Under the pieces are notes generated by a model, which saw nothing but the letters and a program-made list of their open reading frames with translations, was not told the origin of the DNA and ran no database searches. The position numbers and the translations under genes are program-made. Source: Coriobacteriia bacterium (GTDB lineage: Bacteria > Actinomycetota > Coriobacteriia > Anaerosomatales > PALSA-660). From it: a DNA stretch of 64,000 nt. Shown here piece by piece: positions 1,367-37,151 of the stretch. Location: contig JAUSBS010000100.1 of assembly GCA_030651905.1 (NCBI GenBank), forward strand, positions 19,892 to 83,891, given 5' to 3'. Numbering within the stretch: the first letter of the stretch is position 1; every line of letters starts with the position of its first letter.

Positions 1367-2398
1367 ATGAGACGAGGAGGGGCGGCAAGCGTGGAGCGGC
1401 GCGAGTTCTGCAGATATCTCGGCGTGTGCACCGTGGCGGCCTGCACGGGAGGGCTCGCGGGCTGCGCTCGCCTGATCGACTGGTCTTCCGGCTCACGCGA
1501 TACAGCTTCGCGCTCCATGAGCGGTACCGAGACCACGTCCGTGCAGCCGACCGGGACGTCCGTGCCGACCGCCACTCCGGAAGCGCCGGCGCCGCCGCCT
1601 GATCTCGCCGTCTGGACGGGCGACGATCCTGAGAGCAACGTCCGCGCCGCCATCGCGGCTCTCGGCGGCATGGAGCGCTTCGTGAAACGTGGTGCGAAGG
1701 TCGTCGTCAAGCCGAACGTGCTCACCGGACGCGCGCCGAAGTACGCCACGACGACGAACCCGCAGGTGCTCGCCGGCGTCGTGAAGATGTGCCTCGAGGC
1801 CGGAGCCGCGAGCGTCGTCGTGCTCGATCGCCCGACGAGCTCCGCGCGCCAGGCGTTCGACGTCTCGGGACTGACGGCCGCCACGCAGTCGGCAGGAGGA
1901 ACGCTCAAGATCCTCAGCGACCGCAACTTCGAGCGGGTCGAGATACCGGGTGGCCGCTCGCTCACCTCATGGCCTCTGGTCGCGGACGTCTTCGACGCCG
2001 ACGTCTTCATCAACGTCCCGATCGCCAAGACCCACGGCATGGCGGGGCTGACGCTGTCGATGAAGAACCTCATGGGGATCATGGGCGGTGAGCGCGGCAC
2101 GATCCACCAGGACTTCGCACAGAAGATCGTGGACGTGAACACGCTCGTGAAGCCGCACCTCGTCGTGTTGGACGCGTACCGGATGCTCATCCGCAACGGG
2201 CCGACCGGCGGTGATCTCAGGGACGTGCGTCTGGCCAAGACCGTGGTGGCCGGAACGAGCCAGGTGGCGGTGGACGCGTTCGGTACGACGCTGTTCGAGA
2301 TGAAGCCGACCGACCTCGACTACCTGGTGCGCGCCGCTGAGCAGGGGCTCGGGATCATCGACCTGGCCCTGCTCTCCGTTGCGCGAGGGCAGGCCTGA
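1367..2398 (+). CDS. DUF362 domain protein with twin-arginine signal and lipobox (exported lipoprotein)
   Basis: N-terminus is ...VERREFCRYLGVCTVAACTGGLAGC (RR motif, LAGC lipobox). The body (VVVKPNV..., INVPIAKTHGMAGLTLSMKNLMG) matches my recollection of DUF362. A GTG at 1391 preceded by GAGGAGG is a plausible alternative start. Confidence 0.8.
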   Translation: MRRGGAASVERREFCRYLGVCTVAACTGGLAGCARLIDWSSGSRDTASRSMSGTETTSVQPTGTSVPTATPEAPAPPPDLAVWTGDDPESNVRAAIAALGGMERFVKRGAKVVVKPNVLTGRAPKYATTTNPQVLAGVVKMCLEAGAASVVVLDRPTSSARQAFDVSGLTAATQSAGGTLKILSDRNFERVEIPGGRSLTSWPLVADVFDADVFINVPIAKTHGMAGLTLSMKNLMGIMGGERGTIHQDFAQKIVDVNTLVKPHLVVLDAYRMLIRNGPTGGDLRDVRLAKTVVAGTSQVAVDAFGTTLFEMKPTDLDYLVRAAEQGLGIIDLALLSVARGQA

Positions 2399-2399
2399 G

Positions 2400-3968
2400 A
2401 TGGCCGACGCTGCGCGAACGCGTGCGCGGAGAGGACTTCGGCGCCTGCGGAAGGCTTCCCAATACACGCTGCTCGCCGCGTTCCTCGTCTTGCTGACACT
2501 CACGGTCTGGCCTCTCGGCCACGTCTACCTCGGAGCCTTCCTCGTCGCGGACCCACTCATCGCGGCCAACAGCGCCATGGGCGGCGTCTTGAGGATCGAG
2601 ATGCTGCTCGCCGTGGTCGTGCTGCTCTCGCCGCTACTCCTCGGCCGCGCGTTCTGCGGCTACGTGTGTCCGACAGGAGCACTGGCGGAGGCCGTGTCGC
2701 CGACGGAGCGTCCTTCTGACGGAGGACCCCCGCGCATGCGCGCTTCACGCGTGCCCGCGCGAGCGCGCGCGATCCTTCGCGCGCTGCCCCCCTACGTGCT
2801 CATCGCGTGCGGGGGTCTGCTCCTCTTCGCGAGCGGGTCCTTCCTGTTCTTCGATCCTTTGACGACGCTGACCCGCTCGGCCACAGTCCTGCTCTATCCC
2901 GCACTCGACCGCCTCACACGCGTGATCGGGGACGTGGCCTACCTGGCGCCGCCCCTGCGCGGCGGAGTGGATGCGGTCACCTCGGCGCTCACGGGGCGGA
3001 TCGTCTTCACCCGTCCGCTCACGTACGGCCTCCAGCTCGGCATCCTCGGCTACTTCGGCATGATGCTCGGCCTCTCGCGGCTGGAGCCGAGACTATGGTG
3101 CCGCCATCTCTGCCCGCTCGGCGCCCTGCTGGGCCTGACGGGACGTTTCGCGCTGTTCGGAAGGGTCGTCGATGCGGAAGTGTGCATCCAGTGCGGGAAG
3201 TGCGAGCACGTCTGCCCGCTCGATGCGGTCTCGGGCGATCACCTGTCCACCGACACGGCGCGCTGCCAACTCGGACTCGAGTGCGCCGAGGTCTGCCCGA
3301 CGGACGCGATACGCGTGGGCTGGCTGCCCTCGAGAACGACGTTCCAGCCGTCGCGCAGGGCGCTGCTCGGCGCATCGGGCGCGACCCTGCTCGCCGGGTT
3401 CTTCACCTACACGGGCCTCTCACGCTCCGAGCGCGACGTGCGACTCATCAGGCCACCGGGCGCACGCACCGAGACCGAGGTCCTGGGACTGTGCAGCCGC
3501 TGCGGACAGTGCATGAAGGTCTGCCCCACGAACGTGCTGCAGCCGGCGGTCACCCGCGCCGGGATCGAGGGTGTCTTCACCCCGCAGATGGACTACCGGC
3601 TCTCCTACTGCGACTGGTCGTGCAGCGAGTGCGGGAAGGTGTGTCCGACCGGAGCCATCATGCCGCTTGCGCTGGAGGCCAAGCGCAAGACGACGATAGG
3701 GCGCGCCTACATCGATCGGAACCGCTGCATTCCGTGGGCCGACTACAAGACGTGCCTCGTGTGCCAGGAACTCTGCCCTATCCCCGACAAGGCGATCGCG
3801 TTGCGCGAGGTCGAGGTGGACGACCCTCGTGGCGGCAAGGTCAGACTCGGACGGCCCGAGGTCCTTGTCGAGCGCTGCATCGGTTGCGGCGTGTGCGAGA
3901 ACGCCTGCCCGGTGCCCAACGAGTCGGCCATCGTCGTGCGCGCGGTCGCCCCGGAGCGGCGCGCGTGA
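2400..3968 (+). CDS. membrane polyferredoxin, NapH-like N-terminal half fused to NapG-like C-terminal half (about 6 Fe-S motifs)
   Basis: ATG at 2400 lies 2 nt after the DUF362 stop. TM helices carry FCGYVCPTGAL and WCRHLCPLGALLG motifs (NapH/MauN/NosR type). Cluster motifs are CIQCGKCEHVCP, CAEVCP, CSRCGQCMKVCP, CSECGKVCP, CLVCQELCP and CIGCGVCENACP. There is an internal TAT-like SRRALLGASGATLLAG segment. Confidence 0.8.
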   Translation: MADAARTRARRGLRRLRKASQYTLLAAFLVLLTLTVWPLGHVYLGAFLVADPLIAANSAMGGVLRIEMLLAVVVLLSPLLLGRAFCGYVCPTGALAEAVSPTERPSDGGPPRMRASRVPARARAILRALPPYVLIACGGLLLFASGSFLFFDPLTTLTRSATVLLYPALDRLTRVIGDVAYLAPPLRGGVDAVTSALTGRIVFTRPLTYGLQLGILGYFGMMLGLSRLEPRLWCRHLCPLGALLGLTGRFALFGRVVDAEVCIQCGKCEHVCPLDAVSGDHLSTDTARCQLGLECAEVCPTDAIRVGWLPSRTTFQPSRRALLGASGATLLAGFFTYTGLSRSERDVRLIRPPGARTETEVLGLCSRCGQCMKVCPTNVLQPAVTRAGIEGVFTPQMDYRLSYCDWSCSECGKVCPTGAIMPLALEAKRKTTIGRAYIDRNRCIPWADYKTCLVCQELCPIPDKAIALREVEVDDPRGGKVRLGRPEVLVERCIGCGVCENACPVPNESAIVVRAVAPERRA

Positions 3969-3975: not shown

Positions 3976-6402
3976 CTACTCGTACGCGATGGCGTCGCGC
4001 ACGCTGACCTGCGAGGCGCGGAACGCGGGGAGCAGGCTCGCCACGGCGGAGATGCCCGCCACGACGAGAAGCCAGGCCAGCACCCCGCTCCACGAGAACT
4101 CATAGGACAGCGGGATGGTGATGGCCTTCTCGAGCAGCAGGACGAGTCCGAGACTCACGGGATAGGTGAAGACGGCCCCGAACGCCCAGCTGAGCACGCC
4201 TATGACGACACCCTCCGTGACGAAGACCTGGAATATCGAGCCATGCGAAGCGCCGACAGCGCGCATGACCCCGATCTCGCGGGTGCTCTCCAGAACGTTG
4301 ATGATCATCGTCCCCGACAGCCCTATGATGCCGACCGCCGCCAGGATGACCGCCATCACGATCAGGAACGTCACGAGGATGCCCAGCTCGTTCGCGAGCG
4401 TCGTGGACATGCCACGCTGTGTCCGTACGCCGGACACGACGAAGCCCGCCGACTTCAACCGCGCCTCCAGGCGATCGCCGGCCAAGCGCTGGCCCGCGTC
4501 GGAGGTGTCGGTCGTCCGAACGACGGTGCGCCCGACGGCGCCCTCCTCGCCCAACGCTCGGCTGAGATACTCACGGTCGGTGAAGACGAGCGATCCCATC
4601 ATCTGTCCCTGGACGATGCCCACCACGCGCCACTCGAGCTCCCGGCCGCGGACGGTGAACGTGCGCGTGTCTCCGATCCGCAGACCCTCGTCGTTCGCGA
4701 TGTCGGTGTTGATGACGACGAGTCCCACATCCCCGGGGCGGAGCCAGCGGCCCTCCACGAGGCGGGGCTTGATGAACGTGCTGGCCGGCGGCAAGCCGAT
4801 GACGCTCGGGGCGTCGTTCTCGCTGCCGTCGGGTCGTGCGAGCGACGCTCCGTGCAGGATCCAGCTCTCCGCTCCGGTGACACCCGGGGTGCTCAGGATC
4901 TCGCGCTCGACGGCGGCGCGGTTGACGGGCTGCTGGTAGCTCACCTCGACGTCGTAGCTCCACCACGCGGCGACGTCGTCGACGGTCTTGAGCATCGAGC
5001 TCCGGACGCTCATCACCGACATCACGACCGTCGAGGCGAGCGTGAGCGTGACGAGCGTCATGACGAGACGCCCCTTTCGCAGGAACGTGTTGCGCAAGCC
5101 CAGGGCGACCGGGCGTGGCAACCCGCGGACGAGTCCGAGCACGCGGTCGATGAAGCCATGGCCGAACTTGGCAGAGGACATCCCCGTGCGCGTGAGCGCG
5201 TTGACGACGCTGATACGCGTCCCGGTGCGGATGGGGAAGTACGCGGCGGCGAGCGGGACGAGCAGACCGACCGCGATCGCCAGAGCGATGGCGTAGCCGG
5301 GCGCGGTGGCGGGAGCATCGCCGAAGTTGAGCAGCCCGCCGCCGAACCGCGCGAACCATCCGGCCCACCATCCACCGGTCGGCAGTCCGACGAGCAGCGC
5401 GAGCACGCCGTACGCCGCCACGAGCGCCAGGTACATCCACATGATCTGCGACGAGCGCCCGCCGATGGCCTTCATCACGCCGACCTGTCTGACCTGCTGC
5501 GTGACGAGCGCGCTCACGGTGTTGACGACGAGGAAGCCGGACAGCAGCAGCGCCATGATGCCCAGTGCCAGCAGCAGGAGCGCCACGGCACGGAATATGT
5601 CGCCCAGGAAGTGGCTGTTCGGCTTCGGAACGTTCATGCCATAGACGGCCACGCCGCGCGGCGCCAGTACGTCGTCCCGCAGATGGGCCGCGAAGCGGCT
5701 CGCCTCGTCGCGGGTGAGATCCGCCCGATCCATCGAGACGACGAGCTGGTTGTAGGCCTCCGGCTGACGGAGGTCGGTGAGCTCTCCCATGGAGACGAAA
5801 CCGCGGAGACGGCCGGAGAACATGGCAGGAAACGCGTTGATGTCATGCGCGAACCCCACGACGCGCAGGACGCGCAGCTCGCCGTCACCGGCATCGACGG
5901 TGATGGAGTCGCCCTGCGCGATGTCGACCTCTTGCGTGGCCGAACGTTCGATGACCACTTCGCCGGGACCCGGCGGCCACGGCACTCCTTCATCCGCGAA
6001 CGCGCGCTCGACCTCCGAGGATGCCCAGTCGCCGGCGGACACGATCTCGATGCTGCGTGAGCGCTCAGCGACCGTCACGCCGGCGGGAGGCTCCTCCACG
6101 CCCCGCAGATCGCCGAGGCGGAACCGCATGACCGTCGAGCGACGCCCGTCCGCCGCACGCACGCCCGGCTGCCGCGCCACGGCGCGGACGAGCTCTTCGC
6201 CGAAGTCACTCGTGTAGAGGGTGGCGTTGGCCGGGACGGACCGGGGGAAGTTGCTGTCGAACGACTCGACGAGCATGCCACGGCCCCCGATGACGACGAG
6301 GATGGCGAAGACCCCGATCGCGATCGACAGCACAGTGAGTAGCGTGCGGATCTTGTGGGCGAGCAGGTCGCGTCCGATCTTGGACCAGCGCGGCTCAGCC
6401 AT
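3976..6402 (-). CDS. ABC transporter permease, FtsX/MacB family (two FtsX domains, large extracytoplasmic loops)
   Basis: Begins [35 protein letters not shown] and ends ...[18 protein letters not shown], typical of MacB-like permeases. ATG at 6402 overlaps the ATPase stop by 8 nt. Confidence 0.85.
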
Positions 6403-7174
6403 GACCTTGACCGGAGCCCTTGAGCGGACTGCGGGTCTCCTCGACGATCTCCCCGTCACGCACGTGGAGCGCGCGTGTCACACGTGCCGCCAGATCGTCG
6501 TCGTGGGTCACCATGACGATGGTCTTGCCTTGACGGACGAGCTTCTCGAAGAGCCCGAAGACAGCCTCGGCCGTCGTCGAATCCAGATTGCCGGTGGGCT
6601 CGTCGGCTGCGAGTATCGGCGGATCGTTGGCCAGCGCGCGTGCGATGGCGACGCGCTGCTGCTGGCCGCCGGAGAGCGCCGCGGGAAGCTTGTGCGCCTG
6701 ATCGACCATCTCGACTTGCTCCAGAAGCGCCATCGCATACGACTCCCGCTCCCGGACGGCGTGCACGTTGCAGAAGTCCATCGGGAGCATGACGTTCTCG
6801 ACGACGGTGAGCGTGGGAAGCAGCTGGAAGAACTGGAACACGACACCTATGGTCCGCCCTCGCCACGCAGCGAGCGCATTCTCCCCGAGAGCGTGGACCG
6901 GTGTCCCGTCCACGACGACCTGACCGGACGACGGACGATCGATACCCGTGATCATGTTGATGAGGGTGGTCTTGCCGGAGCCCGACTTGCCGATCAGTCC
7001 GACGAACTCGCCCTCGTCCACGACAAGATCGATGCCCTTGAGCGCGGTGAAGGGGACCTCGCCGGTGTCGTAGACCTTCACCAGGGACGAGAGTTCGATG
7101 AGCGGACGACCATGAGAGCGGCGAGCCACGTGTTCGTGCGTCCCTTCCAGGGAGCGGTGAACGGACGCGTGCAT
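6395..7174 (-). CDS. ABC transporter ATP-binding protein (MacB/LolD-like)
   Basis: Walker [11 protein letters not shown], signature [15 protein letters not shown], Walker [13 protein letters not shown]. Start is uncertain: ATG 7174, or GTG 7129 which has GGAAGGGA upstream. The Arg-rich ORF extension to 7435 was rejected. Confidence 0.85.
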
Positions 7175-7267
7175 GCGCCACCGGCATCCGCGCGCAGCGT
7201 CCGAGGTAAGAGGATACCCCGAGGTATCGACCGAGCACACTCCCGGTGCCGGCAGCGGGGCACGAGA

Positions 7268-7297
7268 GAGGCGGCGGGCGTCTTCGCCCGCCGCCTC
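7268..7297 (-). terminator. 13-bp perfect GC hairpin downstream of the cytochrome gene
   Basis: GAGGCGGCGGGCG-tctt-CGCCCGCCGCCTC lies 47 nt after the cytochrome stop. On the minus strand it is followed by TCTCGTG, a weak U tract as is common in high-GC genomes. Confidence 0.5.
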
Positions 7298-7343
7298 GAG
7301 GAGCGGCACTGGATCGCTGCGGCGAAGCGCCGCTTCGAAGTGT

Positions 7344-8123
7344 CTAGCGGACCCGCACGGGAGCCTTCTTCGCGACCGGCGCCGGCGCTGCGAAGAACAT
7401 CCTGGCCGCGACCGGTGCCACATGGCAGGCACCACACGTCGGCGTCGCGATCGTCGCGCCGTCGGCGCTGACGACGTGGCACTTCGCGTTCGTGCAGGTG
7501 GTCGCCTGGACTCGGGCGGTGACTGCCGAGGCGTTGTTGATCGGGGTACCCCGGGTCATCAGTGCCGACACCGGAGCGTACAGGGCAGCGCGGTTGGTGG
7601 CGTTGTATGCATGACCACTGTGGGTCGCGGGAGCGACGTGGCAGGCATCACAGGCAGCCGGTGCGTGGCAGGAGGCGCAGGCGGCGGACTTGGTGCCCGA
7701 CTGCGGCCACGAGCCGCGAACGTGGATGGCGTGCAGTTGGGCTGCGCTCAGCTTGGACCAGTTCGAAGTGCTGAAGTAGCCGTAGGCCGTCGGAACGGAC
7801 ATGACGGTCCTCGCGGGGCCGGCGCCGTATCCGGCGTGGCAACCGGCGGCGGCGCAGTTGGAGCCCAGCCCGTGGCTGTGCTTGTAGTAGGTGCCGATCC
7901 TCTGGCTCGACTTCAGCCAGTGGCAGGACTTGCACTTCGAGTAGTTCACGACGGCAGTGAAGTCGGCCACAGGGGCACCGATCTTCGCACGAGGCGAATG
8001 GCAACGGGCGCACTCCGCGCTCGTGCCGGTCGCGCTCAAGCGGGCGAACGCCGGAACGACGCTCGTGAGAACGATCGTCGCGGCCACCGCTACCACCATC
8101 AGGATCTGGATGCTGCGCTTCAT
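7344..8123 (-). CDS. secreted or membrane-anchored multihaem c-type cytochrome (5 CXXCH plus 2 CX4CH motifs)
   Basis: Signal-like N-terminus [27 protein letters not shown]. Haem motifs are CARCH, CKSCH, CAAAGCH, CASCH, CDACH, CTNAKCH and CGACH within 259 aa. GAGGGG RBS lies about 10 nt upstream of ATG 8123. Confidence 0.75.
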
Positions 8124-8406
8124 CTTGATCAGCCCCTCGTCCGGGATTCTCGCCCGGGTTCCGCCTGTCCCCACTGTCAGACCGTTCACGCTTGCAGGAC
8201 GACCGCTTGTCTCTGCTAGTGTCGGCTGAACGGTCTCCGGACTGAACCAAACGGTTAGCTCGACGCGCCGAACGGTCGGTCTGACGCTTTCGCGGCGGCC
8301 GGCGAGTAGGGCTGGTGTGCTGGAAGGCACCTCCTGAAAGATGAACGGTACCTTCAGGATGATGTGGTGGCGTGCCGGTTCCTGAGTCGCCCGTGCCGCG
8401 GTGGGC

Positions 8407-8412
8407 TATAGT
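8407..8412 (+). promoter_or_regulatory. candidate -10 box (TATAGT), 7 nt before the MFS ATG (possible leaderless transcript)
   Basis: GGGCTATAGTGGCCGCCATG. No SD sequence lies between the box and the ATG. No convincing -35 was seen. Confidence 0.3.
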
Positions 8413-8419
8413 GGCCGCC

Positions 8420-9637
8420 ATGGACAAGCGACGTCTCGCGATCGCCTTCAGCATCGTCCTGGTGGACATGCTGGGCTTCAGCCTCATCCTGCCGCTGCTG
8501 CGCTACATCGCAGTGGGCTTCGGTGCCAGCGACTTCACCGTAGGTCTGCTGGTCTCCGTCTACGCTCTGGGCCAGTTCTTCGGCGCACCCGTCCTGGGCC
8601 GACTCTCGGATCGCTTCGGACGCCGCCCGATCCTTCTGGTGTCGATCTTCGGTACCTTCGTTGGCTTCATCGTCCTGGGATTCGCGACGACGCTTTGGAT
8701 GCTCTTCCTCAGCCGGATCATCGACGGCATCACCGGCGGCAACATCTCCGTGGCGCAGGCATACATCTCCGATGTGACCGACGCCGAGCATCGGGGGCAG
8801 GCGCTCGGCCTCATCGGCGCGGCCTTCGGCATCGGGTTCGTACTCGGCCCGGTCACCGGCGGACTGCTCGGCGAGGCGTTCGGCTACTCGGTTCCCGCGT
8901 TCGTCGCGGCAGGACTGGCCGCGCTCAACATGGGGCTCGTGGCGTTCCTGATGCCCGAGTCACTCACGCGCGAGATGCGCCGGCGGCTCTCAGAGCGCAA
9001 GCGCCCCATCATCGACATCGCAGGCCTGCGACAGGCACTCGAGCACCCCCGAGTCGGCCCACTGCTCACCATCCGCACCGTGACGGCTCTGGCGTTCCAG
9101 ACGTTCGAGAGCGGGTTCGCCATCTGGGCGCCGGTCGCTATCGGTCTCACCGCACGCGGGAACGGCCTCGTGCTCGGCTACATCGGCGTGTTACAGATCA
9201 TCATCCAGGGCGCTCTGATCCGCCCACTCACGCGGCGGTTCCCGGAAGGACGGCTGCTCACGGCGATGATCGCCCTCGCCGGGGTGTCCCTCGTGGCGTG
9301 GACACTCTCGCCGAACGTGTGGGTGCTCCTGGTCGTCTTCATACCGCTGTCGATCGGGATGGCGGTATCGAACACACTACAGAGCTCACTGCTCTCGAAG
9401 TCCGTCGACCCGGACGAGGTCGGAACGGTCTTCGGCCTCTCGACCTCAGCGCTGAGCCTGATGCGGATCCCCGCGGGCGTGCTGGCGGGCTCGCTCACCG
9501 GCCTCGCACTCTGGTCGCCGGGAGTGTTCTGCGGCGCTCTAGCGCTGGGGATCGTCCCGTTCGCCTGGCGCAGATGCCGTGGCGGCGTGTGCGAGGAGCC
9601 CATGGGTGACGACGAACCGGTCCCCGCCCAGACCTGA
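8420..9637 (+). CDS. MFS transporter (drug:H+ antiporter/TCR-Tet-like)
   Basis: MDKRRLAIAFSIVLVDMLGFSLILPLL...GRLSDRFGRRPILL is the MFS motif A. About 12 predicted TM segments. Confidence 0.85.
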   Translation: MDKRRLAIAFSIVLVDMLGFSLILPLLRYIAVGFGASDFTVGLLVSVYALGQFFGAPVLGRLSDRFGRRPILLVSIFGTFVGFIVLGFATTLWMLFLSRIIDGITGGNISVAQAYISDVTDAEHRGQALGLIGAAFGIGFVLGPVTGGLLGEAFGYSVPAFVAAGLAALNMGLVAFLMPESLTREMRRRLSERKRPIIDIAGLRQALEHPRVGPLLTIRTVTALAFQTFESGFAIWAPVAIGLTARGNGLVLGYIGVLQIIIQGALIRPLTRRFPEGRLLTAMIALAGVSLVAWTLSPNVWVLLVVFIPLSIGMAVSNTLQSSLLSKSVDPDEVGTVFGLSTSALSLMRIPAGVLAGSLTGLALWSPGVFCGALALGIVPFAWRRCRGGVCEEPMGDDEPVPAQT

Positions 9638-16363: not shown

Positions 16364-17062
16364 TCACTTCGCCGACTCGCCACTTCCCTCGAGGCGCCGG
16401 ACGTCCACCAGACGCGCTTGGACGATGAGGCGCTCGCGGGCGCTGTAGGGGGGATGACACGCCGTGAGCGTGAGCATCGGGTCCTCGGTGTGCGCCACGA
16501 CCTCCACGTGGTCGGGTGTCACCGCGAAGATGCGGACGACCTGGTAGCGGTAGCGGCGATACGGCGAGTAGAGGTCGATGGTATCACCCGATGTGAGCAC
16601 GTCCAGACTCCCGAAGGGGTGCCCGTACGTCGTGCGGTGGCCCGAGATGCCGACGTTGCCCGTCGCGCCCGGCAGATCGGTCGTGGTGATCCAGCCGGGG
16701 CCACGGCGAAGGTCGCCTGCCGCCGTTCCCTTCACGACGACCGTGTCGAGGCCCATCTTCTCGATCACGAGCCGCCCGAACGCTCCGCCGCGCGCGAGGG
16801 AACCCCAGTATCCCCCGTCGGCGGCGTCCCATCCGGAGAAGTCCATGAGGACGGGTTGCGCCGGCGATACCACCGAATTGCCGAGGACGGAAGCGACCAG
16901 CTGCGTGCGCAGGGCCGACTGGTCGAGGTAGTTCACCGCATCGGTGACCCCGACATAGGCCACAAGCCCGAGGGCCGCACCGAGCAGCACGTTGGCCAGC
17001 GCGTGAAGTGAGAGCCGGAGAGGGCCGACCGGCACACTCGCCGCAAGCACCGATCCACTCAT
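16364..17062 (-). CDS. class E sortase
   Basis: N-terminal TM segment, ISGHRTTYGHPF, catalytic TLTAC, and C-terminal RLIVQARL, typical of actinobacterial SrtE. GGGAGGGAGG RBS precedes ATG 17062. Confidence 0.85.
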   Translation of the reverse strand: MSGSVLAASVPVGPLRLSLHALANVLLGAALGLVAYVGVTDAVNYLDQSALRTQLVASVLGNSVVSPAQPVLMDFSGWDAADGGYWGSLARGGAFGRLVIEKMGLDTVVVKGTAAGDLRRGPGWITTTDLPGATGNVGISGHRTTYGHPFGSLDVLTSGDTIDLYSPYRRYRYQVVRIFAVTPDHVEVVAHTEDPMLTLTACHPPYSARERLIVQARLVDVRRLEGSGESAK

Positions 17063-17184
17063 GGCGGTCCGCCTCCCTCCCGCTACCGGCACCACCTCCG
17101 CGCGCTCCCCCACTATAAGTAATCTCACCTGACCTGCCGATATCACTCCTGTACGGCACGTTTGACATCAGGGACGCGAAAGCG

Positions 17185-19213: not shown

Positions 19214-22198
19214 TTATGCCACGCGGTGCGAGACGCGTCGAAGTACCACGCCTGCAAGCGCGAGCACGCCCGCCGCGAGCAGCAGCAGGTAGAGGTCGAT
19301 GCCGGTGAACGGCAGGAACGGCAGCGTCACGACCACGCGCGCCTTGTCCACGTTGTCGACCGGAGTCTTGTCGATCGTCGGATCATCCGGGAAGTCGATC
19401 TTGACGGTGTTGTCGATCTTCGTGCCGTCCGCCACGTCGCTCTTGACCCTCATCTTGTAGACGATGGTCCCGGAGGCATCGGGGAGGAGCGGGCCTGTGA
19501 GGTTCCACGTGATCTTGCCGCCCGACACGGTGCCCCCAGCCGCGTCGACAACGTCGACGTAGCGCTCGTCGTAGTCGTCCACGATCTGGAAGTCGGTGGC
19601 CGAGGCCTTGCCGTCGTTGCCGTAGACCAGCGTGTAGGTGAGGATCTCGTCCGGGTCCGCGATCGTTGGCGTGACCGACTTGTGGATCCAGAGATCCGGC
19701 TCGTCGAAACCGATGAACGGCTCCTGGTTGCCAAAGTCGAGGTCCTGGGTGGAAGAACCGCCCGTGACGGTGACGGGCTCAGGGCTGACCGTGCGAACCC
19801 AGCCCGTCTGCATCTCCTCAGTGAGGAAGTACAGCCCCGGCTTGAGGTTCCCGAACGAGTAGGCACCGCCGGGTCCGGTCGTGGTAGAGGCAACGAACAC
19901 ATAGTCCGCTGGGACCGACGGGCTCTCTTCGCCGCTGGCAGCCAGCATCGGGAGGGACTGGAACAGCTCTCTGATATCCCTGTGCCTGTAGAGATTGATG
20001 GTCCAGCCGGCGAGCAGGGGTTCGCCGATCGCCTTGATGGTGTCGCCGTTGAGGTCGTTGAACTTGACGCCGTTGAGATCGCTGAACTGGGTGTTGCCGA
20101 CCACAACGCGCTTGGTCTGCCCGCCGACCAGCGTGAACTCGACCGGGACCTCGCTCGTCGACTGGTACCAGCCCGTCTCGGAGGCCTCGGTGAGCTTGTA
20201 CGTACCGGGCATCAGGTTCTCGAACGACAGGTTGCCGGACGAGTCGGTCAACGCAGTGAACGTCGCCGTATCGGCCCCCGCGGGCCCCGTCAGTGTGAAT
20301 TCGCGTACGAGACCCGGCTCAGGGGCGTCAAAGATGCCATCACCGTTGAAGTCGTTGAACTTCACGACCTGAACGACCGCGAGCTCCTCGTTGGTGAAGT
20401 CCAGGTTGTACAGGTGGGTGGTGTGGCCGATGGTGGCGGCGTCAGCGGCGCTGTCATAGATCGGCGCGGACTTCTGCACCCAGCCGGTCTCCATGGCCTC
20501 CTCGACGTAGTAGTCGCCGGGCTCGAGGTCGTAGAAGGCCCAGTGGCCGGGAAGGCCGTCGACGGATCTGGTGACCGTCGTGGCGACCGAACCGATGGTG
20601 CCTGTCTTGTAGAGCTTGATGGTCCAGCCGTTGAGGCCGGCCCCGCCCTCGAAGTTGAACTTGTGGCCGGAGATCTCGTTGTCGACGACCTCGTCGTTTT
20701 TGAAGTCCAGGTCGGTCAGGTGGGTGGTGTGGCCGATGGTGGCGGCGTCAGCGGCGCTGTCATAGATCGGCGCGGACTTCTGCACCCAGCCGGTCTCCAT
20801 CTCTTCCTGCACGTAGTACTTGCCGGGCTCGAGGTCGTAGAAGGCCCAGTGGCCGGGAAGGCCGTCGACGGACTTGGTGATCGTCGAGGCGACCGAGGCT
20901 GCGGTGCCTTCCTTGTAGAGCTTGATGGTCCAGTTGTTGAGGCCGGCTCCGCCATCGAAGTTGAACTTGTGGCCGGAGATCTCGTTGGACACCTGTGCGT
21001 TCCCGAAGACTCCGCAATCCTTCGTCTCGGAATGCCCGAGCTGGAATCCACTTGTGATGCCGCTCTTCGTACAGATCCAGGTCTCACCGGCGGGAGCTGC
21101 GCCCTCCGCCAACTTGTAGTAGCCGTCGTCGACGACCCGCTTCGAGGGGTCGGTATCGTCGTGGCTGAAGAACACGAGACCGTTCGAATCGGTGGTCTTG
21201 GTGATCGTCTTCACTACCGTTGTGTACGTGCTGTCTGTGTACTGCGTCAGAACGAACGGCCAGCCACTGATCCAGGGCTCGCCGGTCTCCTGCACGCCGT
21301 CTGCGTCCAGGTCGTGGAACTTCTTGGCTTGGATGTGCGAGCAGAAGTCGGGCTCATCGGCGAAGCGGACGTCGATATGACTGAGGCCGGCCCACTGGCT
21401 GCCGTCACACTCCGTGCCGGATGGCGGGCTGTGCATGAGCGTGTCGTGGTAGCTCCCGTCCGTGCCGAACGCGCTGTATACGTTGGCGTTCGGACCGCCC
21501 TTGACCACCATGTAGGTGACGGGCGCAGTGGACGTCCACGCGAACACCGGTCCGTAGGTGCCGGTGCTCACAGTGATGGTGATGCTCACCGACGTGCCAT
21601 GGTGCAGGAACGAGTATGTCTGGGTGCCGGAGGAGATGGCCCCGGCGCCGGGCACGCCATCCGGAATCCTGAAGTCGCCCGCAACCAGACTCGGGTTGCC
21701 GTCCACTATCGTCGGCTGTACGCCGTCGCCCGAAGGACTGTTCAGCGCGGTCGTGCTCGACACGACGACGCCCATATCCAGCGCGGCAGCCGTGACGGTG
21801 ACGGGTGCGGGCTCCTCCGAGGGTGCCGGATCGGGCGCCGGTGCCGGGTCTGCCGGCGGCGCAGGGTCGGGCGCCGGTGCCGGGTCTGCCGGCGGCGCGG
21901 GATCAGGCGCGGGTGCCGGATCGGGTGCCGGTGCCGGGTCTGCCGGCGGCGCAGGGTCGGGCGCCGGTGCCGGATCAGGCGCAGGGTCTGGCGCTGGTGC
22001 CGGATCGGGCGCGGGTGCGGCCTGCTCCGGAGCAGGCGCATCGATCGCGTACGCGACCGCGACGACGCCAGGACCGGTCATGGCGAACACGAGCACCATG
22101 GCCGTGAGCGCCGCCAACCACTTGCGGATCCATCGAACGTGCGGCCTCGAGAGCGCCATCGTCCTCATCCCCCTGTCCGCGACGCGCCAGCGTCGCAT
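19214..22198 (-). CDS. LPXTG-anchored cell-surface protein with Pro-rich N-terminal tract, SdrD-B/Cna-B-like repeats and DUF11-like domain
   Basis: Signal peptide ...WLAALTAMVLVFAMTGPGVVAVAYA, then (PAPD)n. About 5-6 prealbumin-like repeats (GHKFNF...GW.I.LY...PG.Y...E....GW). A DUF11-like segment (LWIHKSV...ILTYTLVYGNDG). The C-terminus is LPFTG plus a hydrophobic stretch plus RRVSHRVA. Start is uncertain among ATG 22198, 22168 and 22159. Confidence 0.85.
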   Translation of the reverse strand: MRRWRVADRGMRTMALSRPHVRWIRKWLAALTAMVLVFAMTGPGVVAVAYAIDAPAPEQAAPAPDPAPAPDPAPDPAPAPDPAPPADPAPAPDPAPAPDPAPPADPAPAPDPAPPADPAPAPDPAPSEEPAPVTVTAAALDMGVVVSSTTALNSPSGDGVQPTIVDGNPSLVAGDFRIPDGVPGAGAISSGTQTYSFLHHGTSVSITITVSTGTYGPVFAWTSTAPVTYMVVKGGPNANVYSAFGTDGSYHDTLMHSPPSGTECDGSQWAGLSHIDVRFADEPDFCSHIQAKKFHDLDADGVQETGEPWISGWPFVLTQYTDSTYTTVVKTITKTTDSNGLVFFSHDDTDPSKRVVDDGYYKLAEGAAPAGETWICTKSGITSGFQLGHSETKDCGVFGNAQVSNEISGHKFNFDGGAGLNNWTIKLYKEGTAASVASTITKSVDGLPGHWAFYDLEPGKYYVQEEMETGWVQKSAPIYDSAADAATIGHTTHLTDLDFKNDEVVDNEISGHKFNFEGGAGLNGWTIKLYKTGTIGSVATTVTRSVDGLPGHWAFYDLEPGDYYVEEAMETGWVQKSAPIYDSAADAATIGHTTHLYNLDFTNEELAVVQVVKFNDFNGDGIFDAPEPGLVREFTLTGPAGADTATFTALTDSSGNLSFENLMPGTYKLTEASETGWYQSTSEVPVEFTLVGGQTKRVVVGNTQFSDLNGVKFNDLNGDTIKAIGEPLLAGWTINLYRHRDIRELFQSLPMLAASGEESPSVPADYVFVASTTTGPGGAYSFGNLKPGLYFLTEEMQTGWVRTVSPEPVTVTGGSSTQDLDFGNQEPFIGFDEPDLWIHKSVTPTIADPDEILTYTLVYGNDGKASATDFQIVDDYDERYVDVVDAAGGTVSGGKITWNLTGPLLPDASGTIVYKMRVKSDVADGTKIDNTVKIDFPDDPTIDKTPVDNVDKARVVVTLPFLPFTGIDLYLLLLAAGVLALAGVVLRRVSHRVA
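20396..20995 (-). repeat. two tandem 306-bp (102-codon) near-identical intragenic repeats
   Basis: The block beginning GAAGTCCAGGT...GGTGGGTGGTGTGGCCGATGGTGGCGGCGTCAGCGGCGCTGTCATAGATCGGCGCGGACTTCTGCACCCAGCCGGTCTCCAT recurs at an offset of exactly 306 nt (20396 versus 20702). Long runs are identical. Confidence 0.8.
21822..22018 (-). repeat. low-complexity GC-rich repeat encoding (DPAPAPDPAPPA)n
   Basis: Reiterated GGTGCCGGGTCTGCCGGCGGCGCAGGGTCGGGCGCC-type units of about 36 nt. They are in frame within the surface protein. Confidence 0.7.
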
Positions 22199-24874: not shown

Positions 24875-25046
24875 GCGACGACCGCCTTTGTCGAGGGATT
24901 GCGGTACTGTGGTCTCGTTGACTGTGTGTTCGGTATAGTACCCGTCCCCCCTGCCCGCGCGTCGCAACGGCGGTCTCGCGGGGCCGCCATGCCTACATCG
25001 TCGCTCCTGGGGGCGAACCGTGCGCCACCCCTCTCCGACAGCACAC

Positions 25047-26993
25047 ATGAGGCTAGCCGCCGCCCTCTTGGGCGCCGCCCTGATCATGGGAGCGGCGGCC
25101 GGAGCGTGGGCCGCGCCGGCAGAACCGTCCGCGCCACGGGTCGTCCTGCGGCGCATCGAGGGACTCACTACCACTCAGGGCACGCTGGGCGCCGAAGTCT
25201 CCGTGGCCCTCCCGCGACAGATAAGCGGCATGACCGTCCGCCTTCGTCTGCTCGCGGCCGACGGCACGACCGTCTACCAGAGCACCCAGACGCGGGGGCG
25301 GCTCGACCCGGGAGCGTATCAGTTCAGCTTCCAGCGCGACTTGTCCTCGGTCCGCATGAAGGAGGGCGTCTGGACACTCGAGGCCCGTGTCCGCGCGACC
25401 GGCTCCGCGGCCGTCGTCGTGAGCGAGCCGCTCTACGTGGTGGGCCCGGACCGGGAGCCTCTCCCCGTCGCCATCGTCGTCCGGTTCGCCGCACTTCCGA
25501 TGTCCGATCCCATGGGACGCTTCGTCATCGATCCAGCCCAGGAGCCATCGATACGATCCGAGATCGACGCGCTTGCCCGCCTGTCCGCGCTGAGGCCCGA
25601 TCTGCACCTCACGGCCGCCCTGCCGCCGATCGTGCTCGATGAACTGCGTCAGGTCGCCGACGGCTACTCTCTTGATCAGACCGGCACGGCCCCCGTGACA
25701 CAGGACGCCGCACCGTGCGCCGCCGCCGCATCGACGCTCGCATCGTTGCGTCAGACACTACGCTCCGACGCGCTGACCCTGGTTGGCGTGGGCTACGCGG
25801 ACCCCGCCTGCGACGGCCTTGAGGCCATAGGCGCCATCGATGACCTCGCCCTGCAACTCTCGCTCGGCGCCACGGTGACGAGCGAGACGCTCGGGGCTGT
25901 GACCACCGCCGGGGCAGCAGTCCACGGCGACGCGCTGCCCCGCGCGGCCCTCGCCGCACTCGCGGCGCGCCAGACCACCTTCGTGCTGCTCGCTCCCGGC
26001 TCCGTGCGCTCGGTCTCCAAGAACAAGGAGTCCTCCGCGAGCCCGGGAGCCTACGCGATCGTCGACTCGACGGCGACCGCGCTCGTGTTCGACCCCGTCG
26101 CGTCGGGACTCTTCGCGGGACCGGCGGGTGACGGGCGCGCCGCGCTCGGCCACCTGTTCGCCCGGCTGACGACCAGGCCGTCGAGGAGTGCTCCCGTCGT
26201 GGCTGTCGTGGACGTCGGCCCCGGGTCTCGAACCTCCGTGAACGATCTCCAGGCGCTGCTCGCCGTGCTGGCGCGGACGGGGTGGGTCACCCTTGTCGAT
26301 GCTCCCGAAGCCGCATCCATGGTGACGTCGGGGACCACGGTGGTGCTGCCGGCCTCCACCGCCTCCGTGACGATCGCCCCGTACTGGAGCGCGGTGGCCA
26401 CTGCGCGCGAGCGCGTAATGGCGCTCCAGGAGGCGGTAGGCCCGGCGGATGCGGACGCCGAGACGGCCGTACGGGCGCTGCTCGTCGCCGAGAGCGCGGC
26501 GTGGAGCATCGACACGTCCGGAGCAGTCGAGCGGGGTGCCGCGTTCTCGGCCGCCGCTGACGAGCGAGCGTGGAGCGTGCTGTCCAAGGCAACGCTGGCC
26601 GTCCCGAACGTCACACTGTCGGGCAACGCCGGTCGCGTGCCGGTGAGCATCAACAACGCCACGGACCGCCCGATGCTGTTGACGCTGCGCATGCGGCCCA
26701 AGGGTCTTCATCTCAAGCGCGGCTCCGAGATCACATTCCTGGCCTTGCCCGGCGAGAACATCCAGTCCGTGGCGGTCGAGATGGGGACGTCGCTTTCGGG
26801 CGCGGTGCACTTCGATCTTGCAGCAGGCCGGCTGACGGTCGCTTCGGGTGACGCCACCGTTCGCGCGTCATACATCGACCGCCTGGCGATACTGCTCGGT
26901 GTCATCGTGGTCTTAGTCGCCCTGCTCTGGTACATAACACGGAGAGGTCCGGACGCTCTCGACCGACTGAGGAAGGCTGCCGACACACGCTGA
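25047..26993 (+). CDS. secreted protein with C-terminal TM anchor (DUF6049-like, tentative)
   Basis: Signal peptide [23 protein letters not shown]-terminal helix [18 protein letters not shown] followed by basic residues. The size and the position upstream of trxB/trxA resemble the actinobacterial DUF6049 locus, from memory only. Confidence 0.65.
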
Positions 26994-27035
26994 TGCGTCG
27001 TGATCGGTCGGCCCCCGGCCCGGGAAAGGCCCAGC

Positions 27036-27401
27036 ATGCTCAAGTGGATCAAGATCGCACTCGTCATCCTTATAGCGGTGACGGGGGTCAACGATATCGG
27101 GAAGTGGCTGGTCGGCGCCTACACGGTGGAGGATCGCACCAGGACGATGTCCTTCCAAGCCGCGCAGGTGGCCAAGAAGACACGGACAGCCGACTCGGGC
27201 TGGCCGACCGTCGCGCAGGCAGCGCAGCAGTCCGGACTCCGAGTGCTGGCCTACGGACAGACCGCAGCCAGCGTCACGGTCACGGCTCAGATCGCCGTGA
27301 GCGGCACGTGGGTGATCGGTCCCACGATCGCGCTCATAGGCGGGAAGCCGCTGTCGACGCCGTTCACCATCGAGCAGACGGTGACCACGCCGATCGGATG
27401 A
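27036..27401 (+). CDS. small membrane-anchored hypothetical protein
   Basis: MLKWIKIALVILIAVTGVNDIGKW is an N-terminal TM segment. High GC3. GGAAAGG lies upstream. Confidence 0.55.
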   Translation: MLKWIKIALVILIAVTGVNDIGKWLVGAYTVEDRTRTMSFQAAQVAKKTRTADSGWPTVAQAAQQSGLRVLAYGQTAASVTVTAQIAVSGTWVIGPTIALIGGKPLSTPFTIEQTVTTPIG

Positions 27402-31879: not shown

Positions 31880-32299
31880 TCAGTCGATGCCGACGCCGGT
31901 GGTCGTCGCCACGAACTTGCCGTGCTTGACCCCCTTGGTGCCGATGAGCTCGTCGGCGATCCGCTTGATCTCGGCGGACGGCCCCCGCATGACGACGACC
32001 TCGAGGCAGTGGTGCGCGTCCAGGTGGATGTGCAGCGTGGACACGATCGACTGATGGTGTGAGTGCTGGTGCTCGGTGAGCTTGTCGGCCAGGTCCGTGG
32101 AGTGGTGGTCGTAGACAAGGGTGACCGTGCCGACCGCTTCCGCGTCGCCACTGCTCCACTGCTCCTCGACGAGCGCGTTGCGGATGAGGTCGCGCACGGC
32201 CTCCGACCGGTTGACGTAGCCCTTGTCGGCGATGAGCGCGTCGAAGCGCTGGACAAGGCGCTCGTCGGCCGAGATCCCGAATCTGACGATGTCTGGCAT
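31880..32299 (-). CDS. nikR: nickel-responsive regulator NikR
   Basis: Ribbon-helix-helix N-terminus [23 protein letters not shown]...[15 protein letters not shown]-terminal metal site HHQ...[12 protein letters not shown]. Confidence 0.9.
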
Positions 32300-32325
32300 C
32301 CCCGTGGCCCCTTCGTGTGCTGTTC

Positions 32326-32467
32326 GTGCTACGCCGATACTGCCCGGATAGCACCTGGATGGCACGCTCGCATGAGTTCGTGCGAATCGTTCCGATACGC
32401 TTGACGTGGCCTTTTGCCGTCGCTACGGTCGATCAGAATCGTAGCACGGATTCTGCAACGGTAGCAC
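32326..32467. promoter_or_regulatory. nikR/cbiM divergent control region: repeated GTAGCAC/GTGCTAC boxes and candidate cbiM promoter
   Basis: GTGCTA-N17-TAGCAC (32326-32354). GCTACG-N12-CGTAGC (32422-32445). Direct GTAGCAC copies at 32441 and 32461. TTGACG(32401)-17-TACGGT(32424) overlaps the second inverted repeat. Confidence 0.35.
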
Positions 32468-32512
32468 CCCGCGGATACGCGCAGCCCGTCCCACTCTGGA
32501 GAAGACCAGACC

Positions 32513-33565: not shown

Positions 33566-33585
33566 AACCGACCACCTCCCTCACC

Positions 33586-33627
33586 GCGAGCCCCGTACGC
33601 CTCCCGAACAGGCGCGACGGGGCTCGC
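33586..33627 (+). terminator. 11-bp perfect hairpin after cbiM
   Basis: GCGAGCCCCGT-(20 nt)-ACGGGGCTCGC, followed by GTGTTATGG. Confidence 0.5.
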
Positions 33628-33637
33628 GTGTTATGGC

Positions 33638-33643: not shown

Positions 33644-33649
33644 CGGCGC

Positions 33650-37141: not shown

Positions 37142-37151
37142 GGACTCTGCC

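What the first reader, a model, noticed from the sequence alone, without database searches (positions are those of the whole stretch)
7344..8123. Compact multihaem cytochrome c (up to 7 haem motifs in 259 aa) in a Gram-positive high-GC genome
There are five CXXCH and two CX4CH motifs behind a signal or anchor sequence. The gene has its own strong terminator (7268-7297). It lies 3.4 kb from the DUF362/polyferredoxin pair and next to a MacB-type ABC exporter. Multihaem cytochromes are uncommon in Actinomycetota. Here it may indicate extracellular or periplasm-like electron transfer. The protein has no obvious similarity, by eye, to NrfA or NapC signatures.
Basis: partly seen in the sequence, partly recalled or inferred. 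Interest (0 to 1): 0.55.

Follow-up and report, generated by a model that had tools for sequence, protein, structure and literature searches.

The report
Standalone seven-haem cytochrome c module
This gene encodes a small exported protein with seven haem-binding sites, a free-standing copy of a building block that related uncultured Coriobacteriia place at the front of giant cell-surface cytochromes, so it most likely relays electrons through the cell envelope; the protein type is known but this family is uncharacterised.

Summary
ORF 7344-8123(-) encodes a 259-aa protein with 5 CXXCH and 2 CX4CH motifs behind a Sec-type signal or anchor. All 14 Cys lie in the motifs, and all 13 His are either motif His or invariant in orthologues. 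The protein is identical to hypothetical protein Q7W16_07600 of a Coriobacteriia MAG.

It passes no Pfam or NCBIfam threshold and has no PDB relative by sequence or Foldseek. A profile search of 1.84 billion proteins finds 204 relatives. The roughly 230-aa module is usually the N-terminus of giant multihaem proteins (up to 4,199 aa and 71 motifs). Nearly all those that carry an organism name come from Coriobacteriia or Actinomycetota MAGs. In three such genomes ResB/CcsA maturation genes lie beside or near the giant gene.

Orthologues keep the order MFS <-> cytochrome, ABC ATPase, fused MacB/FtsX permease, with a conserved GC-rich hairpin that lacks a U-tract.

My best reading is an envelope electron-relay cytochrome. 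The claimed rarity is overstated: cultured Anaerosomatales carry 17-18 multihaem cytochromes. Whether this MAG has a maturation system could not be checked; the window has none. This is an uncharacterised family within a known kind, and of moderate interest.

The parts
7344..8123 (-). Heptahaem c-type cytochrome gene (259 aa; mature form about 232 aa, about 28 kDa with haems, pI about 9.6)
   Evidence: It has seven motifs, and all Cys are in the motifs. It is identical to Q7W16_07600, accession MDO8915928.1. The motifs and six extra His are conserved in orthologues. dN/dS is below 1.
8043..8123 (-). Signal peptide or signal anchor (residues 1-27, MKRS + hydrophobic core + AFA|R)
   Evidence: A hydropathy window of 19 residues reaches 2.5 over residues 5-23. 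AlphaFold models residues 2-22 as a helix with pLDDT about 90. The AxA site is conserved across homologues. Cleavage versus anchoring was not tested.
8124..8371 (.). Divergent MFS/cytochrome intergenic region with a conserved RBS and an array of ACCGTT/AACGGT hexamers
   Evidence: Five of the window's 20 hexamer copies lie here. The motifs and ACGAGGGG are conserved in L005, L010 and L012. No sigma-70 consensus promoter was found.
7268..7297 (-). GC-rich hairpin 47 nt after the stop codon (a putative terminator or attenuator, or an mRNA 3' stabiliser)
   Evidence: dG is -30.6 kcal/mol. L010/L011 have an equivalent hairpin with nearly the same sequence, and L005 has one with a different stem sequence. 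There is no T-run, and the consensus scan reports none.
6395..7126 (-). ABC ATPase (MacB/LolD/FtsE type), downstream on the same strand
   Evidence: Pfam ABC_tran. The best NCBIfam matches are LolD, FtsE, YbbA and MacB, all below their cutoffs. It follows the cytochrome in the window and in the P0009, P0004, P0006 and P0008 loci.
3976..6459 (-). Fused duplicated MacB_PCD/FtsX permease (827 aa)
   Evidence: Pfam MacB_PCD x2 and FtsX x2. The NCBIfam ADOP duplicated-permease match is sub-threshold. The gene is conserved in L005-L008 and L010.
8372..9637 (+). MFS efflux-type transporter, divergently transcribed
   Evidence: Pfam MFS_1 at 6.7e-55. The similarity to Tet(A)-like efflux transporters is sub-threshold. 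It is paired with the cytochrome wherever the contig reaches upstream of it: in the window and in the loci of P0009, P0004, P0007, P0006 and P0008. That includes L012-L014, where the flank beyond the MFS gene differs.

Best explanation
The gene encodes a Sec-exported heptahaem c-type cytochrome that is either released or tethered by its N-terminus. It belongs to an environmental, monoderm Coriobacteriia bacterium. After export the apoprotein would receive seven covalently bound haems, most likely from a system II (ResB/CcsA) machinery encoded elsewhere in the genome.

The protein is a free-standing copy of a roughly 230-aa seven-haem module. Related Coriobacteriia and Actinomycetota place this module directly after the signal peptide of giant multihaem proteins. 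I infer that the module is the membrane-proximal entry end of a haem wire. The standalone protein would then act as a short electron relay in the space between membrane and wall. It would take electrons from a membrane quinol- or hydrogenase-linked donor and pass them to other cytochromes or to external acceptors such as Fe(III).

The close family has six conserved distal His for seven haems. It lacks the His that follows motif 7 in the larger relatives. One terminal haem is therefore probably exposed or ligated by a partner, which would suit a docking or exit site.

What is shown: the motifs, their conservation, the export signal, the modular relationship to the giant proteins, and the proximity of maturation genes in relatives. 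What is inferred: haem attachment in this organism, the direction and partners of electron flow, and the open haem.
For: Motifs and residues:
- There are seven motifs. All 14 Cys lie in the motifs, and all 13 His are motif His or are invariant in orthologues (H82, H84, H131, H134, H168, H171).
- In the 33-sequence superfamily alignment all seven motifs plus H131, H134, H168 and H171 are invariant, and H82 is at least 90% conserved.
- The gene is under purifying selection.
- The N-terminus is a Sec-type signal.

Relationship to the giant proteins:
- The profile search finds 204 relatives.
- Of the 145 listed relatives with a near-complete module, the module begins within the first 40 residues in 116.
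- Of those 145, 69 are longer than 1,000 aa, with up to 71 motifs.
- Twenty of them end in a discoidin-like tail.
- Precomputed Pfam hits show CarboxypepD_reg and F5/8 type C domains on 1,476-1,498-aa neighbours of small module proteins.

Maturation genes near relatives:
- ResB and CcsA lie immediately upstream of a 1,976-aa, 48-motif member in L004.
- CcsA lies upstream of the giant in L001.
- In the Kow0056 MAG, CcsA is six accession numbers from the giant cytochrome on one contig.

Organism:
- A monoderm envelope is indicated by a sortase and an LPFTG wall protein in the window.
- NiFe-hydrogenase maturation genes (HypF, HypD) and the nickel genes NikR and CbiM are in the window.
- Related cultured Anaerosomatales respire Fe(III) with H2 and carry 17-18 multihaem cytochromes (PMC9686372).
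Against: - No maturation gene, quinol dehydrogenase cytochrome or other cytochrome c gene lies in the 64-kb window. The rest of the MAG could not be inspected.
- The gene sits among housekeeping and transporter genes, not in a respiratory cluster.
- No known electron-transfer family is matched above threshold, so the role rests on motif chemistry and on the architecture of relatives.
- The structure model is only moderate (pLDDT 66, pTM 0.58).
- 'N-terminal module means membrane-proximal entry point' is an inference.
Confidence: 0.55

Rival explanations
1. The cytochrome works with the adjacent MacB-type ABC transporter, and perhaps the MFS pump, as one unit. It might be a redox or haem-related accessory, a sensor or a substrate of the exporter. 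Examples would be detoxification or export of a redox-active compound, of haem, or of a metal species that the cytochrome reduces outside the membrane.
For: The order MFS <-> cytochrome, ABC ATPase, FtsX permease is kept wherever the contig extends. This holds across orthologues down to about 51% identity (P0009, P0004, P0006, P0008) and in the window. The MFS-cytochrome pair survives a change of the flank beyond the MFS gene in the P0007 loci. The cytochrome and the ABC genes are on the same strand, 217 nt apart. The hairpin lacks a U-tract, so read-through is possible.
Against: Synteny in these contigs extends well beyond this unit (DnaK operon, sortase, DUF362/polyferredoxin), so it may only reflect relatedness. 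A conserved strong hairpin separates the genes. More distant standalone members (P0076, P0161) have no ABC neighbour and follow a giant cytochrome instead. No known MacB-type system uses a cytochrome partner; this last point rests on my own knowledge and was not searched.
Confidence: 0.15
2. It is a small catalytic multihaem reductase or oxidase for a soluble substrate such as peroxide or a nitrogen, sulfur or metal oxyanion. It would use a five-coordinate haem as the active site rather than acting as a pure relay.
For: The close family has seven haem motifs but only six conserved non-motif His. It lacks the His that follows motif 7 in larger relatives. One haem may therefore have an open or unusual sixth ligand.
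Against: There is no similarity to NrfA, HAO/ONR, MccA, peroxidase or other catalytic multihaem families. There is no CXXCK or other special motif. The same module is used repeatedly as one unit of very long haem chains, which argues for electron conduction. A Met, Lys or Tyr ligand, or a ligand supplied by a partner, cannot be excluded.
Confidence: 0.1
3. It is a subunit of a polymeric cytochrome filament (OmcS/OmcE-like in principle). A residue of one subunit would complete the coordination of a haem in the next, giving a wall-spanning wire built from small units.
For: It is small, haem-dense (33 residues per haem) and basic. One haem lacks an evident ligand from within the same chain. In relatives the same module is covalently continued into long haem chains.
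Against: There is no sequence or fold match to OmcS, OmcE or OmcZ. No spare conserved His is available to donate in trans, because all six are needed in cis. No filament-associated genes were recognised nearby.
Confidence: 0.05
4. It is a non-functional relic: the organism cannot attach haem, so the gene product is inert.
For: No maturation gene is present in the 64-kb window.
Against: Every Cys and His is strictly conserved among orthologues, and dN/dS is below 1. The RBS and the promoter-region motifs are conserved. System II genes are widespread in Coriobacteriia MAGs, with 2,444 CcsA-type hits at E<=1e-20, many of them named Coriobacteriia or Anaerosomatales.
Confidence: 0.03

Closest known systems
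Multihaem cytochromes of Gram-positive extracellular electron transfer (Thermincola ImdcA, PdcA, CwcA, OcwA; Carboxydothermus SmhA-C)
   Same: These are exported multihaem c-type cytochromes of a monoderm cell that together carry electrons from the membrane through the wall (PMC6703420, PMC7911101 and PMC7829351, listed). They include small relay proteins and larger surface proteins. The likely working principle is the same.
   Different: No sequence or fold match was detected. The haem number and motif pattern differ: seven haems, with a conserved CX4CH at position 6 and a [14 protein letters not shown] double motif. The phylum is different. Nothing here has been characterised experimentally.
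Multihaem cytochrome repertoire of Anaerosomatales (OPB41) isolates Anaerosoma tenue and Parvivirga hydrogeniphila
   Same: These isolates belong to the same class, Coriobacteriia. Their genomes carry 17-18 multihaem cytochromes, cytochrome c biogenesis genes, and NiFe hydrogenase with Hyp genes. Fe(III) respiration is shown for one isolate (PMC9686372). One superfamily member, P0161, comes from an Anaerosomatales MAG.
   Different: That paper describes its cytochromes by similarity to MtrA, OmcH, OcwA, CFE_2239 and Smh proteins. This seven-haem module and its role as the head of the giant proteins are not described there. Whether the window's MAG belongs to that order was not determined.
Cytochrome c7/c3 superfamily (Pfam PF14522, PF14537; e.g. 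Geobacter PpcA, Desulfovibrio c3)
   Same: Both are haem-dense small cytochromes with bis-His ligation. CX4CH motifs are known to bind haem in Desulfovibrio c3 (my own knowledge). There is a weak hit to PF14522 over residues 155-234.
   Different: The score of 14.3 bits is below the 24.8-bit cutoff. This protein has seven haems rather than three or four. No PDB relative was found.
Geobacter CxxxxCH/CxxCH domain (NCBIfam TIGR01904)
   Same: The C-terminal pair CTNAKCH...CGACH follows the same motif order. A weak match covers residues 197-240.
   Different: The match scores 10 bits against a cutoff of 27 and E=0.58, which is not significant.
Giant multihaem cytochromes with C-terminal discoidin (F5/8 type C) and carboxypeptidase-regulatory-like domains in Coriobacteriia and Actinomycetota MAGs (unnamed)
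   Same: Their N-terminal roughly 230 aa are homologous to the whole window protein, with E down to 1e-41 in the profile search. All seven motifs and four to five distal His are shared.
   Different: They continue for 1,000-4,000 aa with tens of further haems and adhesion-type domains. They keep a His after motif 7 that the window family lacks. They are also uncharacterised.

Membership tests
Multihaem c-type cytochrome (general) | Several CXXCH-type haem-attachment motifs, conserved in homologues | tested here: met
   There are 5 CXXCH and 2 CX4CH motifs. All seven are invariant across the close orthologues (the seventh is lost only in P0011's scrambled C-terminus) and across the 33-sequence superfamily alignment.
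Multihaem c-type cytochrome (general) | Export signal, so that haem is attached outside the cytoplasm | tested here: met
   The N-terminus has a basic n-region, a hydrophobic core and an AFA|R site. This was judged by inspection only; no signal-peptide predictor was available.
Multihaem c-type cytochrome (general) | Enough axial ligands (usually one distal His or Met per haem) | tested here: inconclusive
   There are six invariant non-motif His for seven haems in the close family. Larger relatives have a seventh His after motif 7.
Multihaem c-type cytochrome (general) | A cytochrome c maturation system (Ccm or CcsBA/ResBC) in the same genome | not testable with these tools
   None is present in the 64-kb window. 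Relatives have ResB/CcsA next to module-bearing giants.
Multihaem c-type cytochrome (general) | Covalently bound haem in the product | not testable with these tools
   This needs haem staining or mass spectrometry.
Cytochrome c7 (Pfam PF14522) | Score at or above the gathering cutoff of 24.8 bits | tested here: not met
   14.3 bits, E=0.037.
OmcA/MtrC decahaem (NCBIfam TIGR03507) | Score at or above the cutoff of 209 bits | tested here: not met
   15.3 bits.
NrfA / NapC-NirT-NrfH | A profile match to the family. NrfA also has a CXXCK active-site motif. | tested here: not met
   No Pfam or NCBIfam hit appears even at E<=10, and there is no CX(2-20)CK motif.
Canonical intrinsic terminator | A GC-rich stem-loop immediately followed by a U-tract | tested here: not met
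   The stem is present (-30.6 kcal/mol) and structurally conserved. The tail reads TCTCGTGCCC, and the scan finds no terminator.
MacB-type ABC exporter (neighbour genes) | ABC ATPase plus a permease with FtsX transmembrane domains and a MacB periplasmic core domain | tested here: met
   Pfam ABC_tran, MacB_PCD x2 and FtsX x2. No NCBIfam equivalog cutoff is reached.

The most novel reading that the evidence does not exclude
The roughly 230-aa seven-haem unit may be a previously undescribed multihaem domain family centred on Coriobacteriia. It would form the membrane-proximal base of wall-spanning giant cytochromes (up to about 4,200 aa and about 70 haem motifs). Its free-standing form would have one haem left without an internal sixth ligand, and would plug into partner cytochromes or self-associate to build a conductive path through a Gram-positive wall. 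That would be an actinobacterial solution to extracellular electron transfer, distinct from the Thermincola and Geobacter systems.
Probability: 0.2. Interest if true: 0.65.

Novelty: new variant of a known kind. Interest (0 to 1): 0.4.

Why it matters
Environmental Coriobacteriia (OPB41/Anaerosomatales and relatives) are widespread in the subsurface, and at least one isolate lives only by Fe(III) respiration. How a monoderm actinobacterium moves electrons across its wall is not known.

This gene is the smallest representative of a module that those organisms place at the start of their largest cytochromes. A 28-kDa standalone version would be an experimentally tractable handle for expression, redox titration and structure determination on that family.

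For genome annotation, the result also shows that a 'hypothetical protein' family with no Pfam, NCBIfam or PDB coverage can be recognised by a fixed pattern of seven motifs plus four or five His.

Tried and rejected
- **Family libraries.** Pfam and NCBIfam scans of the protein gave only sub-threshold hits: c7, OmcA/MtrC, TIGR01904 and a lipoprotein family.
- **PDB by sequence.** A profile search found nothing meaningful; the two hits at E about 0.1 cover the signal peptide or a single motif.
- **Structure prediction.** AlphaFold with 11 sequences gave pLDDT 36 and was unusable. With 33 sequences it gave pLDDT 66 and pTM 0.58.
- **The MAG's own contig.** An exact look-up of the window protein in the contig index failed, so the MAG's other contigs could not be reached.
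- **CcsA in this MAG.** A CcsA profile built from relatives returned 2,444 hits, but named proteins carry no locus tags. None of the accessions checked falls in this MAG's accession block, MDO89159xx. This is inconclusive, not negative.
- **Word-indexed search with the superfamily alignment.** It returned only 18 proteins because common CXXCH words saturated the candidate list.
- **CFE_2239 of Carboxydocella.** I checked it as a possible relative. The Carboxydocella protein in cluster P0141 is a different 829-aa protein with only fragmentary matches.
- **Consensus promoter and terminator scans.** They found nothing in 6900-8500.
- **Upstream GTG at 8330 as the start (328-aa ORF).** Rejected. 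Homologues and the conserved RBS support ATG 8123.

Full report
**1. What is in the sequence**

On the minus strand an ORF runs from ATG 8123 to TAG 7344 and encodes 259 aa.
- It contains CXXCH at residues 38, 64, 149, 158 and 230, and CX4CH at residues 90 and 210.
- All 14 cysteines belong to these seven motifs.
- Of the 13 histidines, seven are motif His. The other six are H82, H84, H131, H134, H168 and H171.
- The six-frame translation of the whole 64-kb window has only eight CXXCH, and five of them are in this ORF. The other three lie in non-coding frames.
- The longer ORF from GTG 8330 is not the gene. All homologues start MKR at the position of ATG 8123, and a conserved ACGAGGGG ribosome-binding site precedes it in four orthologous loci.
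- The N-terminus (MKRS, a 19-20-residue hydrophobic core, then AFA|R) looks like a Sec signal peptide or signal anchor. It has no twin-arginine motif and no lipobox.
- The mature protein would be about 232 aa, 33 residues per haem, with pI about 9.6.

**2. Is it a real gene?**

The protein is identical to 'hypothetical protein Q7W16_07600' (MDO8915928.1) of a Coriobacteriia MAG, on an 85.8-kb contig.
- Ten close homologues exist (45-67% identity, 246-269 aa), all from metagenomes. They keep all seven motifs and all six extra His, except that the most divergent one, P0011, loses the seventh motif in a scrambled C-terminus.
- Motif 3 is CXXCH in every homologue. The window copy carries an in-frame GCCGCC (Ala-Ala) insertion that turns it into CX4CH. 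Motif 6 is CX4CH in all.
- Pairwise dN/dS among six orthologous genes is 0.22-0.52 with dS near saturation. The gene is therefore under purifying selection, although the loops evolve quickly.

**3. What family is it?**

No known family is matched above threshold.
- Pfam's best hit is Cytochrome_C7 at 14.3 bits against a cutoff of 24.8.
- The NCBIfam hits (OmcA/MtrC, TIGR01904) are far below their cutoffs.
- No NrfA or NapC/NirT match appears.
- A profile search of all PDB sequences gives nothing meaningful.
- An AlphaFold model from 33 sequences (pLDDT 66, pTM 0.58) has no Foldseek match in the PDB. The other fold libraries were unavailable.

A profile search of 1.84 billion representative proteins finds 204 relatives at E<=1e-3 and 149 at E<=1e-10. 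I analysed the 150 best locally.
- The whole roughly 230-aa unit recurs as a module.
- 145 of these proteins carry a near-complete module, and the counts below are out of those 145.
- The module begins within the first 40 residues, right after a signal sequence, in 116.
- 69 are longer than 1,000 aa and 26 are longer than 2,000 aa. The maximum is 4,199 aa, and the most haem motifs in one protein is 71.
- Nine have two copies of the module.
- Twenty end in a discoidin-like tail.

Precomputed Pfam hits on two such giants (1,476 and 1,498 aa) list CarboxypepD_reg and F5/8 type C domains.

In a 33-sequence alignment spanning 27-69% identity, all seven motifs plus H131, H134, H168 and H171 are invariant, and H82 is at least 90% conserved. 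Larger relatives have a further His shortly after motif 7 (...CHPTKxxAHG). The window family lacks it and ends instead in a short basic tail.

**4. Who has it?**

- Nearly every member that carries an organism name comes from a MAG of Coriobacteriia or Anaerosomatales. The four genome-collection loci found with the profile come from two Coriobacteriia MAGs, one 'Actinomycetota' MAG and one 'Actinobacteria' MAG.
- One MAG (locus tag prefix Q7W30) holds both a 246-aa standalone member and a giant of at least 1,245 aa.
- A fragmentary, distant match exists in Carboxydocella, a member of the Firmicutes.
- The window itself carries a sortase and an LPFTG wall protein, which fits a monoderm envelope.
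- It also carries HypF, HypD, NikR and CbiM, which suggests NiFe hydrogenase and nickel supply.
- Cultured Anaerosomatales (OPB41) encode 17-18 multihaem cytochromes and cytochrome c biogenesis genes, and one isolate is an obligate H2-dependent Fe(III) reducer (PMC9686372).
- Multihaem cytochromes are therefore not unusual in this branch of the Actinomycetota.

**5. Maturation**

The window has no ResB, CcsA/ResC or Ccm gene, by Pfam scans of about 50 ORFs and a WWD-motif regex. The rest of the MAG could not be reached.

System II genes do sit beside module-bearing giants in relatives.
- In L004, ResB and CcsA lie directly upstream of a 1,976-aa, 48-motif protein.
- In L001, a CcsA-type gene lies upstream of a giant that is followed by 14- and 11-motif cytochromes, a TPR protein and an NHL protein.
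- In the Kow0056 MAG, CcsA (GAB4276348) is six accession numbers from the giant cytochrome (GAB4276342) on one 346-kb contig.
- CcsA-type proteins are abundant in Coriobacteriia MAGs.

Maturation by system II is thus likely here, but it is not shown for this genome.

**6. Gene neighbourhood**

The order in the window, by coordinate, is:
- DUF362 (1367-2398, +)
- a NapH/NapG-like polyferredoxin (2379-3968, +)
- a fused MacB_PCD/FtsX permease (3976-6459, -)
- an ABC ATPase (6395-7126, -)
- the cytochrome (7344-8123, -)
- an MFS efflux-type transporter (8372-9637, +)
- the HspR, DnaJ, GrpE and DnaK genes

The unit MFS <-> cytochrome, ABC ATPase, permease is found in every orthologous contig that extends far enough. 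That covers the loci of P0009, P0004, P0006 and P0008. In the P0007 loci, whose contigs end at the cytochrome, the MFS-cytochrome pair is kept although two other cytochrome genes replace the HspR flank.

General synteny in these contigs is long, so the conserved order alone does not prove a functional link. More distant standalone members (P0076, P0161) have no ABC neighbour. They follow a giant cytochrome instead.

**7. Flanking signals**

- Forty-seven nucleotides after the stop codon lies a 13-bp GC hairpin (7268-7297, dG -30.6 kcal/mol).
- Hairpins occupy the same place in L010/L011 (almost the same sequence) and in L005 (a different stem sequence but the same structure). A second, smaller hairpin lies just after the stop in all of them.
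- None has a U-tract, and the consensus scan reports no terminator. It may terminate, attenuate or stabilise the transcript.
- Upstream, the 248-nt divergent region holds five of the window's 20 ACCGTT/AACGGT hexamers. The array is conserved in three orthologous loci, which suggests an operator for an unknown regulator.

**8. Interpretation**

My best explanation (confidence 0.55 for the role, about 0.9 for 'genuine multihaem cytochrome c') is an exported heptahaem relay. It is the free-standing form of the module that related organisms use as the signal-proximal end of giant surface cytochromes. I infer that it passes electrons through the space between membrane and wall. One haem lacks an internal sixth His ligand and may serve as the docking or exit site.

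The rivals are:
- a functional unit with the MacB-type exporter (0.15)
- a catalytic multihaem enzyme with an open haem (0.10)
- a filament subunit (0.05)
- an inert relic (0.03)

**9. Novelty and score**

The kind of protein is well known, and so is its presence in environmental Coriobacteriia.

New here, as far as the libraries and papers I searched show, is the recognition of a distinct seven-haem module family with no Pfam, NCBIfam or PDB coverage. Its use as the head of giant cytochromes is also new, as is the conserved transporter-flanked standalone form.

I rate it a new variant of a known kind, with interest 0.4.

Noticed in passing
window 8124-8371 (also L005 9713-10000, L010 1074-1323, L012 4713-5006): An array of ACCGTT/AACGGT hexamers lies in the divergent MFS/cytochrome promoter region. 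Five of the window's 20 copies are here, three of them spaced about 21 nt apart. The array is conserved in orthologous loci and probably marks an operator of an unidentified regulator.
   Followed up: partly
window 1367-3968 (+): A DUF362 protein is followed by a 529-aa polyferredoxin. The polyferredoxin resembles a NapH-like membrane part (Fer4_5) fused to a NapG-like four-cluster ferredoxin; all NCBIfam scores are below cutoff. The pair is conserved in L006-L008. It could be a membrane redox module, but no link to the cytochrome was shown.
   Followed up: partly
window 7836-7856 (codons for residues 90-96): Haem motif 3 reads CAAAGCH because of an in-frame GCCGCC insertion in a GCC run. All ten homologues have CXXCH here. 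This may be a recent slippage event or an assembly artefact.
   Followed up: partly
C-termini of the window protein and of many small superfamily members: These proteins end in short basic tails (...RVR...ARRR...HRRGR...PHRKR) with no preceding hydrophobic segment. The tails might bind anionic wall polymers or membrane; this is unexplained.
   Followed up: no
L015/L016 5259-11086; L019 205-5957: In Anaerosomatales-type contigs a small module protein (314-361 aa) lies directly downstream of a 1,476-1,498-aa multihaem protein with CarboxypepD_reg and F5/8 type C domains, next to ilv genes. This suggests a recurring giant-plus-small pair.
   Followed up: partly
L004 1259-3437; L001 6789-8267: ResB and CcsA genes sit immediately upstream of giant cytochromes rich in CX4CH motifs. 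They could be dedicated haem lyases for the unusual motif, by analogy with the specialised CcsA isoenzymes of Wolinella (my own knowledge).
   Followed up: no
window 16364-17146 (-) and 19214-22198 (-): A sortase and a 994-aa SpaA/SdrD/DUF11 wall protein that ends in LPFTG, a hydrophobic segment and a basic tail. This is evidence for a monoderm envelope with covalently anchored surface proteins.
   Followed up: partly
window 49834-56708: Three DUF4386 paralogues (49834-50661, 53748-54539, 55986-56708) surround a 906-aa MalT/LuxR-type regulator (50980-53700). A TetR gene lies at 56824-57513.
   Followed up: no
window 25020-27401 (+): A 657-aa ORF and a following 133-aa ORF have coding-like GC3 but no Pfam match.
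   Followed up: no
window 31880-38252: A nickel and hydrogenase-maturation cluster: NikR, CbiM/PDGLE, HypF and HypD. It implies a NiFe hydrogenase elsewhere in the genome, which fits H2-driven respiration as in cultured Anaerosomatales.
   Followed up: no
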